NCBI GenBank assembly: GCA_903912365.1
Contig: CAIWGV010000046.1
Span: 10,707-74,706 of the forward strand
Reading direction: 5' to 3'
Length of the DNA stretch: 64,000 bases
DNA from: an uncultured Alphaproteobacteria bacterium
GTDB taxonomy: Bacteria > Pseudomonadota > Alphaproteobacteria > UBA7879 > UBA5542
Shown here: piece after piece, positions 25,423 through 27,318 of the stretch
Position numbering within the stretch: the first letter of the stretch is position 1
Layout of the letters: every line of letters starts with the position of its first letter
Program-made: the position numbers and the translations under genes
Notes under the pieces: model-generated
What the model saw: the letters and a program-made list of their open reading frames with translations, nothing else
Told to the model about the DNA's origin: nothing
Databases searched by the model: none

Positions 25423-26460
25423 CTATTCTTTAGAAATTTTTTCTCCAGCATTGTCTGTTCCAGCCTCTCTAGATTTAGCTTTTGCCCGTTGTTTCCTCGT
25501 CCTCGAATTAGGTCTCTTTTTCTTTTGAAGCTCGGTCTCTTGCGCATTTTCTTTCACCATTTCAGAATTTGATTGGACTGGCGTCTTCTCCCTTTTTGGT
25601 GCAGTTTCCTCTGACTCTGGAGAAAGCTCAGGCTGTCCGGAGCTTTCAATAACACTCACTTCTTCCCACTCACTCTTCAAAATTTTTTCTTCTCCTCTCT
25701 CTAAAACTTTTTGAAGCTGGATAGGGGTGAGTTCTCCAAAAACTTTTGAACGGAGAGTTCTTAAGGCCTCAGAGTCGTATCGACAGAGTTTTTCTGAAGC
25801 GACTGAAAATCTATTAAGAAGCTGCAAAGCCTCATCAGCCTCCTTTTCTTCCTCAGCAAGAACTGTTAGAAACACAAACTTGGGATTTCTAAGATAACAC
25901 CTTCGGGTTGAGTCGCTCCAAAATCCACCCGCAAAAATTTTTGCATCAAAAGCTTCAGAATCTTGAGCATAGATATCCATCAACCCTTCATAGTACGCCA
26001 TTCTTTGCTGTATTAAGGGAAGTGTGGCATTAATTTCTATATCATCTTGGAATGTTTTTTGGATCTCTAAAAGTTGATTAAAGCCGCCTCTGTAAATTTT
26101 TAGAAGCCTCTCATGAAAAGCTTCATTCACCTTAAGATTTTCTGTTCTCTCCTCTCTCATAAGACCCGTCAGTGTTTGAAATTCTTGAGCCACATGGTCG
26201 GTAAGATCTTTAAGGCGAGATTGAAGGCTCTCCTTACTTACCTGTATGTAGCCTTCCACTTTTTTGTGGTCTGGATTTTCTTCAATTTTCTTAAATATAC
26301 GTAATTTTTCTTCCAGTCGGGCTCCTTCTTCCCCTAAAAGTTGAGCAACAGACCTTATTGTTTTTGTTTTTTCTCTCTCATCCACGGGCATCCCATGAGA
26401 AGACTGGAGGCCTAAAGTCACGAGCATTACGAAAGTTAGTAAAGTATTCTTTTTTGTCAT
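25423..26460 (-). CDS. Secreted coiled-coil protein of unknown function, paralog A, with Lys/Arg-rich NLS-like C-terminal tail
   Basis: Signal peptide MTKKNTLLTFVMLVTLGLQSSHG. Shares blocks with the neighbouring 264-aa ORF (LPLIQQRMAYYEGLMDIYAQD ~ IPLVEQRIKYYGDLRDVYGAD; FLTVLAEEEKEADEALQLLNRF ~ FLAPLVEEERDMLEALNLLKKF; GELTPIQLQKV ~ GELTPPQLQEI). Carries an extra basic tail ...QKKKRPNSRTRKQRAKAKSREAG.... Confidence 0.6.
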   Translation of the reverse strand: MTKKNTLLTFVMLVTLGLQSSHGMPVDEREKTKTIRSVAQLLGEEGARLEEKLRIFKKIEENPDHKKVEGYIQVSKESLQSRLKDLTDHVAQEFQTLTGLMREERTENLKVNEAFHERLLKIYRGGFNQLLEIQKTFQDDIEINATLPLIQQRMAYYEGLMDIYAQDSEAFDAKIFAGGFWSDSTRRCYLRNPKFVFLTVLAEEEKEADEALQLLNRFSVASEKLCRYDSEALRTLRSKVFGELTPIQLQKVLERGEEKILKSEWEEVSVIESSGQPELSPESEETAPKREKTPVQSNSEMVKENAQETELQKKKRPNSRTRKQRAKAKSREAGTDNAGEKISKE

Positions 26461-26523
26461 GTTTTCTCCTTGTTTTTAGATTCTTCGTCTTCAGAATATA
26501 CAGATACTTATCAAAGTAAACTT

Positions 26524-27318
26524 CTATTTTTTAACCGGTTGAAGGGATGCACAAATCTCCTGAAGTTGTGGAGGAGTTAATTCTCCTTTAACTTGGTCCC
26601 TCAAGAGAGTCAAGAGCGGCGACGTATAAATTTCATAGGTTCTTTCTCTGGACGGACATTTTTCCGGATCTCCTTCCTTTGGCGAAGGGAATTTTTTCAG
26701 CAGATTAAGTGCCTCGAGCATATCTCTTTCTTCCTCCACAAGAGGTGCCAAAAAAAGGAGGCCAAAAGACCTCAAAAAAATATCTCTTCCGGAGTTTTTC
26801 ACCTCCACAAAAAAGTTTTTAATGTCTGCCCCATAGACATCGCGAAGATCTCCGTAATATTTAATACGTTGCTCAACGAGAGGAATTATTTCATCAATAA
26901 AGGGAAAGATCTCCTCACTGGCTCTTCTTCTGGTTTTTTGTAAAGCTTCTAAACCATTTTTGTAAAAGGCCTCAAGACTCCTAGAAAAATCTCTTTCCGT
27001 CCAAAGGTATCCCTTTTTTCGATTCATAGAAAAGCCCGTTGCTTTCCGATATTCAGAAATAGCCTTCCATCTGAGTTCTTCAAAATCTTTTAGTAAGGAA
27101 TCCTGTAATCCCTTCATCTCTTCTCTCAGAACTGGATATTGTTTTTCAGCTTCGATTATCGCAGACTCTTTGTTTTTTAGCCGAGTAAATTTTTCTTCCG
27201 TTTCTCTGGTAATAGAAACAATTGTCTTTCGAAATATTTTTTGTAAATCAAGCTCCGGGGCCCCGTAGGACTTAAAACTCAGAATCACGCAAACAAACAA
27301 CCATTTTTTATGAATCAA
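26524..27318 (-). CDS. Secreted coiled-coil protein of unknown function, paralog B
   Basis: Signal peptide MIHKKWLFVCVILSFKSYGAPE. Clear paralogy to the upstream 345-aa ORF (see above). No recognisable catalytic motif. Confidence 0.6.
   Translation of the reverse strand: MIHKKWLFVCVILSFKSYGAPELDLQKIFRKTIVSITRETEEKFTRLKNKESAIIEAEKQYPVLREEMKGLQDSLLKDFEELRWKAISEYRKATGFSMNRKKGYLWTERDFSRSLEAFYKNGLEALQKTRRRASEEIFPFIDEIIPLVEQRIKYYGDLRDVYGADIKNFFVEVKNSGRDIFLRSFGLLFLAPLVEEERDMLEALNLLKKFPSPKEGDPEKCPSRERTYEIYTSPLLTLLRDQVKGELTPPQLQEICASLQPVKK

What the first reader, a model, noticed from the sequence alone, without database searches (positions are those of the whole stretch)
25423..27318. Tandem pair of paralogous secreted coiled-coil proteins inserted between xseA and dprA-topA; one carries a strongly basic NLS-like tail
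Both ORFs have Sec signal peptides and share three collinear conserved blocks (see feature evidence), but otherwise match nothing I recognise. The 345-aa copy ends in …LQKKKRPNSRTRKQRAKAKSREAG…, a Lys/Arg cluster resembling a classical or bipartite eukaryotic nuclear localisation signal. A secreted, duplicated, fast-diverging pair with a eukaryote-like targeting motif fits a host-directed effector.
Basis: partly seen in the sequence, partly recalled or inferred. Interest (0 to 1): 0.6.

Follow-up and report, generated by a model that had tools for sequence, protein, structure and literature searches.

The report
Fast-evolving exported orphan protein pair
Two neighbouring genes of an uncultured alphaproteobacterium encode an old duplicate pair of exported proteins from a tiny undescribed family with no recognisable fold; they evolve about six times faster than their neighbours, and the "nuclear-localisation-like" basic tail is a conserved family feature whose target is still unknown.

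Summary
Both ORFs are real: 25423-26460(-), 345 aa, and 26524-27318(-), 264 aa. They are paralogues (28% identity, E=1e-20). Each has a Sec-type signal peptide.

An exhaustive HMM search of 1.84 billion representative proteins found only seven true relatives. Nothing matched in Pfam, NCBIfam, PHROGs, PADLOC or PDB sequences.

With nine sequences AlphaFold gives a confident model (pLDDT 87, pTM 0.81). It is a compact alpha/beta domain, not a coiled coil, and has no PDB fold match.

The pair is not a recent insertion. The same slot (xseA | long, short | dprA-topA) is occupied in four related lineages, and the duplication predates their split. One lineage deleted the short copy. Another carries a nonsense mutation in the long copy.

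Flanking proteins are 78-91% identical between lineages; the family proteins are 32-41%.

All six intact long forms share an acidic disordered linker and a basic tip with the core R-[KR]-N-[RK]. A strict NLS consensus occurs only in this copy.

My best reading is a Sec-exported envelope or surface protein tethered electrostatically by its tail. A host-directed effector is neither excluded nor shown.

The parts
25423..26460 (-). Long paralogue (345 aa): signal peptide, alpha/beta core, acidic linker and basic tip
   Evidence: ORF. It is identical to P0001, which occurs on 5 public contigs. Orthologues are P0004 (L085), the L090 ORF at 431-1444, and the nonsense-mutated L088 copy.
26392..26460 (-). 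Signal peptide of the long copy (residues 1-23, MTKKNTLLTFVMLVTLGLQSSHG|MP)
   Evidence: Two Lys in the n-region, a 13-residue hydrophobic core (mean Kyte-Doolittle 2.69) and an S-H-G cleavage site. The pattern is conserved in the orthologues.
25654..26391 (-). Conserved alpha/beta core domain of the long copy (residues 24-269)
   Evidence: AlphaFold2 with the nine-sequence alignment A6 gives mean pLDDT 87.2 and pTM 0.81, with helices plus five strands. There is no PDB or BFVD fold match. Invariant residues are Q152, Y164, D167, L198, L215, S230, L233 and L244.
25531..25653 (-). Disordered acidic Ser/Pro/Glu-rich linker (residues 270-310)
   Evidence: Composition analysis gives the linker a net charge of -9. 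The same acidic block is present in all intact long forms. No secondary structure was predicted here.
25426..25530 (-). Basic tip (residues 311-345: LQKKKRPNSRTRKQRAKAKSREAGTDNAGEKISKE), the 'NLS-like' tail
   Evidence: Net charge is +9, with 11 K/R in 20 residues. KKKR and a bipartite-like pattern occur only in this copy. The RKQR core aligns with QKNR, RRNR, RKNK and PRNR in the relatives.
26524..27318 (-). Short paralogue (264 aa): signal peptide and core only, no tail. TTG start.
   Evidence: ORF. It is 41% identical to its orthologue P0005 in L088. The short-copy clade has 100% bootstrap support. The L085 lineage retains only a remnant of this gene.
27262..27318 (-). Signal peptide of the short copy (residues 1-19, MIHKKWLFVCVILSFKSYG|AP)
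   Evidence: The TTG start is preceded by GGGAGGGGG (27324-27332) in the window and by GAGGGGG in L088.
26489..26507 (-). Conserved upstream motif GTATCTGTATATTCTGAAG, ahead of the long copy (promoter or 5'UTR element)
   Evidence: The motif occurs only twice in the 64-kb window, against 0.11 expected by chance. It is conserved upstream of the long copy in L085, L088 and L090.
27332..27350 (-). The same motif, GTACCCGTATAGCCTGAAG, ahead of the short copy
   Evidence: Its presence here shows that the duplication included the regulatory region.
25310..25329 (-). Terminator-like hairpin with a T-run, about 95 nt downstream of the long copy's stop and inside the 3' end of the convergent xseA
   Evidence: Consensus scan only. 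Function not tested.

Best explanation
The two genes are an ancient duplicate pair from a very small, previously undescribed family of Sec-exported proteins. The family is confined to a few uncultured alphaproteobacteria.

Shown:
- Each protein has a cleavable-type signal peptide followed by an alpha/beta domain of about 245 residues that has no recognisable relative.
- The ancestral architecture is the long form: core, then a disordered acidic linker, then a basic tip with an R-[KR]-N-[RK] core. The short paralogue lost the tail after the duplication.
- The duplication predates the split of four sampled lineages. Each copy has been lost once.
- The proteins accumulate amino-acid changes about six times faster than their neighbours.

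Inferred mechanism:
- Both proteins are exported by Sec and signal peptidase I to the periplasm or cell surface.
- The globular domain is a non-enzymatic binding module. Its invariant residues look structural.
- In the long form the flexible acidic linker carries a basic tip that tethers the protein electrostatically to a polyanionic envelope component such as anionic lipid, LPS or peptidoglycan. It would act like an NLS only if the protein is released into a host.
- The two copies are partly redundant. Rapid turnover suggests an exposed, conflict-prone or weakly constrained position.
For: Paralogy: (E=1e-20).

Family size: the exhaustive profile search found 10 hits at E<=1e-3 among 1.84e9 representatives. 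Seven are true relatives besides the two self hits, and one is a repeat artefact. One further relative came from JGI metagenomes. The word-indexed searches found only the query proteins.

Signal peptides: present in all nine members.

No hits in Pfam, NCBIfam, PHROGs, PADLOC or PDB sequences.

Conserved slot and differential loss:
- L085 keeps only the Shine-Dalgarno sequence and the last ~35 codons of the short copy.
- The L088 long copy has a stop at codon 31 and no basic tip.

Tree: short-copy clade 100% bootstrap, window clade 95%, and the window's long and short copies are never sisters.

Rate:
- Window versus L085 identities are TopA 91, MetG 89, XseA 85, DprA 78 and RlpA 70%, against 35% for the long copy.
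- dN is 0.53-0.68 for the family, against 0.05-0.20 for neighbours.
- The same contrast appears in the second clade: DacC 75% against about 28% for the family protein.

The acidic-linker and basic-tip block is conserved in six of six intact long forms.

Both genes have strong Shine-Dalgarno sequences and share a private upstream motif.

In the second clade the gene lies immediately upstream of a periplasmic DD-carboxypeptidase, in two genomes.
Against: - No experiment and no homologue of known function exists. Localisation beyond 'Sec substrate' is inference.
- Signal peptides were judged by rule, not by a trained predictor.
- The dacC adjacency comes from one clade (two related genomes) and is absent from the window clade, so the peptidoglycan link is weak.
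- A conserved short basic motif at the end of a long disordered tail is equally compatible with binding a host target.
- The organism carries eukaryote-directed-looking genes (IQ-motif protease, Fic).
- The AlphaFold database could not be searched, so a match to an uncharacterised predicted fold cannot be excluded.
- dS is saturated, so positive selection cannot be separated from relaxed constraint.
Confidence: 0.4

Rival explanations
1. Host-directed effector. The long form leaves the bacterium after Sec export and acts in a eukaryotic host. Its basic tip serves as a nuclear-localisation or nucleic-acid-binding element, and the short form is a tail-less variant or partner.
For: - Export signal, rapid divergence and lineage restriction.
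- The window copy has KKKR and a bipartite-like cluster.
- The basic tip is conserved across the family.
- The same genome encodes a signal-peptide S8 protease ending in a canonical IQ calmodulin-binding motif (AATKIQALFRGTLARK), and a Fic protein. Both are absent from the syntenic relative L085.
- A relative's genome carries VgrG, MORN and Sel1 genes.
- Gene decay is seen in L088.
- There is a precedent: Holospora obtusa PRP1 is a novel periplasmic protein with a putative signal peptide. It is released into the host macronucleus and binds DNA (PMC9866348).
Against: - The strict NLS consensus is absent from every orthologue. The conserved core R-[KR]-N-[RK] is not the importin-alpha optimum (general knowledge).
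- No type II, IV or V secretion components or other outer-membrane export features appear in any locus.
- The host, and even the taxonomy of the organism, are unknown.
- The second-clade context beside dacC looks like envelope housekeeping.
Confidence: 0.2
2. Peptidoglycan-associated periplasmic accessory factor. The family would work with the PBP5/6-type DD-carboxypeptidase (DacC) or other wall enzymes, with the linker and basic tip reaching the wall or membrane.
For: - In two genomes of the second clade the order is tRNA-Val(GAC) | family gene -> dacC on the same strand, with gaps of 146 and 244 nt, despite different left flanks.
- A third distant member also follows tRNA-Val.
- In the window clade the genes lie about 10 kb from the mltB-rlpA-tmk-holB cluster.
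- Long disordered linkers are typical of wall-spanning periplasmic proteins such as TonB and LpoB (general knowledge).
Against: - The two dacC-linked genomes are related (DacC 75% identical), so this is essentially one evolutionary observation.
- The window clade has no adjacent dacC.
- Housekeeping wall factors do not usually diverge to 30-40% identity while their neighbours stay at 85-90%.
- Either copy can be lost.
Confidence: 0.15
3. Periplasmic immunity-type protein, for example against a type VI or other envelope-targeting toxin. Such proteins are typically Sec-exported, fast-evolving, tandemly duplicated and often pseudogenised.
For: Signal peptides, tandem paralogues, differential pseudogenisation and very fast evolution.
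Against: - No toxin or effector gene lies next to the genes in any of seven loci. The VgrG in L086 is 5.7 kb away behind housekeeping genes.
- No PADLOC or Pfam immunity family matches.
- A conserved 80-140 residue disordered tail with a basic tip is not typical of immunity proteins (general knowledge).
- The chromosomal position is stable over long divergence.
Confidence: 0.08
4. Non-functional or decaying ORFs: spurious or pseudogenised reading frames in an AT-rich spacer.
For: - Low GC3 (0.335 and 0.355, against a window median of 0.459).
- One copy is lost or interrupted in each of two lineages.
Against: - Intact ORFs with conserved signal peptides, Shine-Dalgarno sequences and an upstream motif occur in several lineages.
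- The family is detectable across two clades.
- The fold prediction from a nine-sequence alignment is confident.
- At least one intact copy is kept in every lineage.
Confidence: 0.03

Closest known systems
[quoted passage not shown]
   Same: Like PRP1, these come from an alphaproteobacterium, have a novel sequence and carry a putative signal peptide that implies periplasmic residence. PRP1 is released into the host nucleus and binds DNA (PMC9866348). It shows that Sec export and nuclear action are not mutually exclusive.
   Different: This is an analogy only. PRP1 is reported to carry a D5_N domain, whereas the present family has no Pfam domain. Neither host association nor release has been shown here.
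Positively charged C-terminal signals of VirB/D4-type type IV secretion substrates (Agrobacterium VirE2/VirF, Bartonella Beps, Anaplasma AnkA/Ats-1; general knowledge)
   Same: An alphaproteobacterial protein with a net-positive, Arg/Lys-rich, unstructured C-terminus (+5 to +9 in the last 35 residues).
   Different: Those substrates are recruited from the cytoplasm and lack Sec signals, whereas every member here has one. No type IV secretion genes appear in the window or the loci.
Classical importin-alpha-dependent NLS of bacterial nucleomodulins
   Same: The window's long copy contains KKKR and a bipartite-like KKKRPNSRTRKQRAKAKSR.
   Different: The consensus is not conserved in the orthologues. 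What is conserved is charge and an R-[KR]-N-[RK] core. Nuclear import was not tested.
Periplasm-spanning or tethered envelope proteins with disordered linkers (TonB Glu-Pro/Lys-Pro spacer, LpoB linker, PBP5 C-terminal membrane anchor; general knowledge)
   Same: A Sec-exported globular domain is attached to a long low-complexity Pro/Ser/Glu-rich linker that ends in a short membrane- or polyanion-binding element. In one clade the gene neighbours PBP5-type dacC.
   Different: There is no sequence or fold similarity to any of them. The tip is strongly basic rather than clearly amphipathic. Evolution is far faster than for these housekeeping proteins.
Elongated helical-bundle secreted proteins (T3SS tip protein IpaD, YaxB/ClyA-type toxin components, Borrelia PFam12 surface lipoproteins)
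   Same: They share long antiparallel helical hairpins. YaxAB-type toxins are also encoded as tandem paralogous pairs (general knowledge).

Membership tests
Any curated protein family (Pfam-A, NCBIfam, PHROGs, PADLOC) | A score at or above the family's curated threshold | tested here: not met
   The best Pfam hits are DUF6863 (13.4 bits against a cutoff of 27) and OmpH (15 against 32.4). No family is shared by more than one of the 10 members. PHROGs and PADLOC gave nothing at E<=0.01, and NCBIfam gave only sub-threshold hits.
Any solved structure (PDB) | Significant sequence or whole-domain fold similarity | tested here: not met
Sec/SPase I-exported proteins | An N-terminal positively charged n-region, a 7-15 residue hydrophobic h-region and small residues at -3/-1 | tested here: met
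   All nine members fit, with conserved S/C-x-G cleavage sites. This is a rule-based check, not SignalP.
Bacterial lipoproteins (SPase II) | A lipobox [LVI][ASTVI][GAS]C at the end of the signal peptide | tested here: not met
   The window proteins have no Cys at that position. Only P0009 (VVAC) fits by chance.
Coiled-coil proteins | An extended parallel or antiparallel supercoiled helical rod as the main architecture | tested here: not met
   The confident model is a compact domain of seven helices plus five beta-strands, with pTM 0.81. A dedicated coiled-coil predictor was not run.
NLS-bearing nucleomodulins | A classical monopartite K-[KR]-x-[KR] or bipartite NLS, conserved in orthologues | tested here: inconclusive
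   The consensus is present in the window's long copy (KKKR at 313, bipartite-like) but in none of the other long forms. The basic charge is conserved.
NLS-bearing nucleomodulins | Delivery into a eukaryotic cell and nuclear accumulation | not testable with these tools
   Needs localisation experiments. The host and the organism are unknown.
Type IV secretion substrates (VirB/D4 type) | A positively charged C-terminal signal on a cytoplasmic protein with no Sec signal, in a genome with a type IV secretion system | tested here: not met
   The C-terminus is basic, but a Sec signal is present in all members. No type IV secretion genes are visible in the window or the loci. The whole genome was not available.
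Binary ClyA/YaxAB-type alpha-pore-forming toxins | The ClyA-like long helical bundle with a hydrophobic beta-tongue or head; a tandem pair of paralogues | tested here: not met
Recently inserted genomic islet | An empty site in close relatives, with mobility genes or repeats at the borders | tested here: not met
   The slot is occupied in all four related lineages. No integrase or flanking repeats were seen. The low GC3 is the only island-like trait.

The most novel reading that the evidence does not exclude
The long form is a Sec-dependent, host-delivered protein of a protist- or animal-associated alphaproteobacterium. Its conserved acidic-linker and basic-tip module (R-[KR]-N-[RK]) would direct it to host nuclei or nucleic acids. 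That would define a new effector family with a new fold that bypasses the usual type III/IV routes, analogous to Holospora PRP1. The tail-less paralogue would be a periplasmic partner or decoy.
Probability: 0.15. Interest if true: 0.7.

Novelty: categorically new. Interest (0 to 1): 0.42.

Why it matters
"Categorically new" applies to the protein family and its fold, not to any demonstrated new biology. The family has no sequence or structural relative in any library I could search. It nevertheless folds confidently and has a clear, conserved modular design: signal peptide, alpha/beta core, acidic linker and basic tip.

Its amino-acid replacement rate is about six-fold higher than that of its neighbours inside an otherwise rigid syntenic block, and each paralogue has been lost in one lineage. 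This makes it a clean natural case for studying how exported proteins turn over in poorly known, probably host-associated alphaproteobacteria.

If the tip is a host-targeting signal, the family would add a Sec-dependent route to the small set of bacterial proteins that reach eukaryotic nuclei. If it is an envelope tether, it would be a new kind of periplasmic anchoring module. Either outcome can be tested with simple fusions.

The biology may still prove ordinary. Orphan exported proteins are common in metagenome-assembled genomes.

Tried and rejected
1. The word-indexed homology searches with each protein and with the nine-sequence profile returned only the queries and P0011. The exhaustive profile search was needed to find the relatives.

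2. P0010 is an 1823-aa protein with five repeats matching profile positions 128-177, E=1.8e-7. I rejected it as a repeat-summed artefact: a tape-measure-like protein with no signal peptide or core.

3. The first AlphaFold run used only the two paralogues and was useless (pLDDT 46).

4. A scan of genome contigs with XseA found no close relative (best 52% identity) and no xseA-dprA adjacency in 80 loci. The 'insertion into an ancestral xseA-dprA junction' could therefore not be tested that way.

5. Viral contigs hold no relative. A phage origin was dropped.

6. dN/dS could not be used. dS is saturated (pS 0.6-0.8), so I make no claim of positive selection.

7. I considered the LC3-interacting-region-like W-E-x-V motif (SEWEEV, EEWETV, GWEEV). 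I rejected it as a linear motif because it lies inside the predicted last helix of the core.

8. The OmpH/Skp hint for the short copy (E 0.03) is below threshold and is not shared by other members.

9. Taxonomy and sample origin could not be established.
- Literature searches for the accession numbers found nothing.
- Exact look-ups of Obg, TopA and P0002 found no record.

10. The AFDB fold libraries were not available.

11. The sigma-70 consensus scan found no convincing promoter on the minus strand.
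Full report
**1. What is in the sequence**

The region holds two minus-strand ORFs at exactly the stated coordinates:
- 25423-26460, 345 aa, called 'long' below.
- 26524-27318, 264 aa, called 'short' below.

They are separated by 63 nt. They lie between xseA (24126-25412, +, convergent with the long copy) and dprA-topA (27406-30879, +, divergent from the short copy). The Pfam assignments for these neighbours are unambiguous.

BLASTP between the two gives 28% identity over 267 columns, E=1e-20, with collinear conserved blocks. The paralogy is real.

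Both genes have strong Shine-Dalgarno sequences: AAGGAG before the ATG, and GGGAGGGGG before a TTG.

The TTG start of the short copy matters. A public annotation starts it 10 codons later (254 aa), which would remove the signal peptide. The orthologue in L088 also starts at a TTG behind GAGGGGG, and its N-terminus is conserved.

All nine family members begin the same way: M-x-K/R-K, then a 10-13 residue hydrophobic stretch, then a small-x-Gly/Ala site. This is the Sec/signal-peptidase-I pattern. I judged it by rule, not with SignalP. There is no conserved lipobox.

It has 11 K/R in 20 residues, KKKR, and a bipartite-like pattern.

**2. A tiny orphan family**

Neither protein matches any library I could search:
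- Pfam, NCBIfam, PHROGs, PADLOC.
- PDB sequences.
- The word-indexed search of 5.8 billion proteins found only the queries themselves.

An exhaustive profile search of 1.84 billion cluster representatives found 10 proteins at E<=1e-3. They break down as follows:
- The two queries themselves.
- P0004 to P0009 and P0011, which are true relatives.
- P0010, an 1823-aa repeat protein that I regard as an artefact.

A JGI metagenome scan added one more locus, L090. Viral contigs hold none.

**3. Structure**

With only the two paralogues AlphaFold failed (pLDDT 46). With nine family members the core (residues 24-270) is predicted confidently, with mean pLDDT 87.2 and pTM 0.81.

The model has two long helical hairpins, three further helices and a five-stranded sheet. 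The sheet is built from the most conserved motifs: LTGLV, LRVK and YLxNxxLVFLT. This is a compact alpha/beta domain, so 'coiled-coil' is only loosely apt.

Fold searches found nothing convincing:
- Foldseek against the PDB: best E 0.26, TM<=0.22.
- BFVD: nothing.
- The AlphaFold-database libraries were unavailable.

The invariant polar residues (Q152, Y164, D167, S230) sit at helix ends or inside helices and look structural. I therefore favour a binding module over an enzyme. This is inference.

**4. Not an insertion: an old, syntenic duplicate pair**

The order Mem_trans - xseA - [long] - [short] - dprA - topA recurs in related uncultured genomes:

| Locus | Short copy | Long copy |
|---|---|---|
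| Window | intact | intact, basic tip |
| L088 | intact (P0005) | stop at codon 31, no basic tip |
| L090 / P0006 contig | C-terminal part seen at the contig edge | intact, 337 aa, tail ...GRRARRNRAKK..., followed by xseA |
| L085 | only the Shine-Dalgarno sequence plus the last ~35 codons (EKYPVFEDIYEHH...GALDMENLLESW) | intact (P0004), basic tip |

A neighbour-joining tree gives these results:
- The short copies group together at 100% bootstrap.
- The six window-clade genes group together at 95%.
- The long copies group at 62%.
- The window's own long and short copies are never sisters (0%).

So the duplication predates these four lineages. The three distant members are all long-form, so the tail is ancestral and the short form lost it.

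Each paralogue has been lost once, and every lineage keeps at least one intact copy. That argues for partial redundancy.

Both paralogues carry the same upstream motif, GTAyCyGTATAkyCTGAAG. It occurs nowhere else in the window (2 sites, against 0.11 expected) and is conserved in the relatives. The duplication therefore included the control region.

In 80 more distant genomes xseA is never within 10 kb of dprA or topA, and none of those loci encodes a family member. An 'empty' ancestral junction therefore cannot be demonstrated.

**5. Very fast evolution**

| Comparison | Flanking or neighbouring proteins | Family protein |
|---|---|---|
| Window vs L085 | TopA 91, MemTrans 89, MetG 89, TatD 88, XseA 85, HolB 84, Tmk 83, MBL 83, DprA 78, SLT_2 77, RlpA 70% | long copy 35% |
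| Window vs L088 | XseA 84, TopA 91% | short copy 41% |
| L086 vs L084 (second clade) | DacC 75% | about 28% |

Nei-Gojobori dN is 0.53-0.68 for the family and 0.05-0.20 for the neighbours. dS is saturated everywhere, so dN/dS is not interpretable.

GC3 of the pair is 0.335 and 0.355, below the window median of 0.459. It resembles the obviously accessory genes (Fic 0.27, S8-IQ 0.35).

**6. The tail is a family feature, but not a conserved NLS consensus**

In all six intact long forms the core is followed by 86-140 residues with no predicted structure:
- A Glu/Ser/Pro/Thr-rich linker, net charge -2 to -12.
- Then a basic last 35 residues, net +5 to +9.

Within tails that otherwise cannot be aligned, one short core does align: RKQR (window), QKNR, RRNR, RKNK, PRNR, and more weakly HRRS.

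Only the nonsense-mutated L088 copy has lost it; that copy ends in an acidic stretch.

The strict K-[KR]-x-[KR] or bipartite pattern exists only in the window protein. What is conserved is a charge block and a motif centred on an Asn (a Gln in the window copy), not an importin-alpha optimum.

**7. Context in the second clade**

In L086/L087 (P0009, GCA_037146715.1) and L084 (P0011, GCA_048595075.1) the order is tRNA-Val(GAC) on the opposite strand, then the family gene, then a PBP5-type DD-carboxypeptidase (Peptidase_S11) on the same strand. The left flanks differ between the two genomes.

The short contig carrying P0008 also begins with the tRNA-Val fragment.

This is the only hint of a functional neighbour, and it points to the envelope. 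However, the two genomes are related (DacC 75% identical), so it counts as roughly one observation. The window clade lacks a dacC beside rlpA-tmk.

**8. The organism**

The window is ordinary chromosome: dnaN, asnB, dnaG-rpoD, sodB, ahpC, tgt, acs, obg, xerC/D-like, mltA, mltB, rlpA, tmk, holB and metG.

The Tim44-like protein and the XseA matches place it in the Alphaproteobacteria, with no close species representative (best 52%). I could not obtain a name or a habitat.

The hints of eukaryote association are circumstantial:
- A signal-peptide S8 protease ending in a textbook IQ calmodulin-binding motif.
- A Fic protein. Both of these are absent from the syntenic relative L085.
- VgrG, MORN, Sel1 and alternative oxidase genes in the P0009 genome.
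- Gene decay in L088: an internal deletion in dprA and the nonsense-mutated long copy.

**9. Interpretation**

Shown: a real, expressed-looking, ancient duplicate pair of Sec-type exported proteins. They belong to an undescribed family, have a confidently predicted but unmatched fold and a conserved acidic-linker/basic-tip module, evolve exceptionally fast, and have lost either copy in some lineage.

Inferred (confidence about 0.4): they act in the periplasm or at the cell surface as binding proteins, and the long form is tethered by its basic tip to a polyanionic envelope component.

Rivals:
- Host-directed effector or nucleomodulin (0.2). Holospora PRP1 is a precedent for a periplasmic, signal-peptide protein that ends up on host nuclear DNA (PMC9866348).
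- DacC- or peptidoglycan-linked accessory factor (0.15).
- Periplasmic immunity protein (0.08).
- Junk ORFs (0.03).

**10. Verdict**

The labels 'coiled-coil' and 'inserted' are not. The effector/NLS interpretation is neither refuted nor demonstrated.

The family is new at the level of sequence and, as far as I could test, of fold. Orphan exported proteins are common in uncultured bacteria, however, and no mechanism has been established. Interest is moderate (0.42).

Noticed in passing
window 32996-34480 (-): A 494-aa Peptidase_S8 subtilase with an N-terminal signal-like sequence. Its C-terminus is a canonical IQ calmodulin-binding motif (AATKIQALFRGTLARKNLKGR; Pfam IQ 27.5 bits, above the 20.3 cutoff). 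The syntenic relative L085 lacks it: there TatD is followed directly by the MBL hydrolase. GC3 is 0.347. A calmodulin-binding motif on a bacterial exported protease suggests a eukaryotic host.
   Followed up: partly
window 30951-32117 (-): A Fic_N + Fic/DOC protein with a C-terminal HTH-like region and the lowest GC3 in the window (0.27). It sits between topA and the MBL hydrolase and is absent from that position in L085. It looks like a lineage-specific acquisition.
   Followed up: partly
window 13914-20291 (+): A giant 2125-aa ORF whose only Pfam signal is a single GLUG motif. It may be a large surface or adhesin-like protein.
   Followed up: no
window 6522-7238 (+): A 238-aa ORF that matches only the N-terminal (ATPase) domain of a T4-type large terminase (Terminase_6N, E=2.7e-26). 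It looks like a truncated prophage or gene-transfer-agent remnant among housekeeping genes.
   Followed up: no
window 22092-22805: A Hypoth_Ymh protein (22092-22592, GC3 0.287) lies beside tRNA-Arg(ACG) (22729-22805). In L088 the same tRNA-Arg is followed instead by two unrelated ORFs of 287 and 298 aa with no Pfam hit. The tRNA-Arg flank is therefore a variable islet.
   Followed up: partly
L088 2803-3342: dprA in this relative has an internal deletion: only DprA residues 6-79 and 251-357 still align, so the catalytic DNA_processg_A domain is gone. Together with the nonsense-mutated long copy next door, this suggests ongoing gene decay in that lineage.
   Followed up: partly
window 26489-26507 (-) and 27332-27350 (-); L085, L088 and L090 upstream regions: A 19-nt motif, GTAyCyGTATAkyCTGAAG, sits 27-42 nt upstream of each paralogue's start. 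It occurs nowhere else in the window and is conserved in the relatives. It could be a promoter, an operator or a 5'UTR element. No sigma-70 consensus was found around it.
   Followed up: partly
L084 2947-5458; L086 9803-12554; L087 110-2861; L089 1-45: In the distant clade the family gene is always next to tRNA-Val(GAC), which is divergent, 73 of 75 nt identical between L084 and L086, and present as a fragment in L089. In two genomes it is followed by dacC (Peptidase_S11).
   Followed up: yes
L086 2256-5136 and 7649-8290: The genome carrying P0009 has an orphan VgrG (Phage_GPD/Phage_base_V/Gp5_C) followed by a faint MORN-repeat protein. It also encodes an alternative oxidase (AOX) and a Sel1-repeat protein of at least 717 aa. 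These traits are often seen in protist-associated bacteria.
   Followed up: no
window 8155-9192 (-) and 60927-62216 (-): A YhcG-type PDDEXK nuclease (DUF1016) and an AAA_14/DUF4143 ATPase. Both have low GC3 (about 0.39) and look like accessory or mobile-type genes among core genes.
   Followed up: no
window 26524-27318 (-): Annotation discrepancy. Public records hold this gene both as 254 aa (GTG start, no signal peptide; NCBI/ENA) and as 264 aa (TTG start; Logan). The Shine-Dalgarno position and orthologue conservation favour the 264-aa form.
   Followed up: yes
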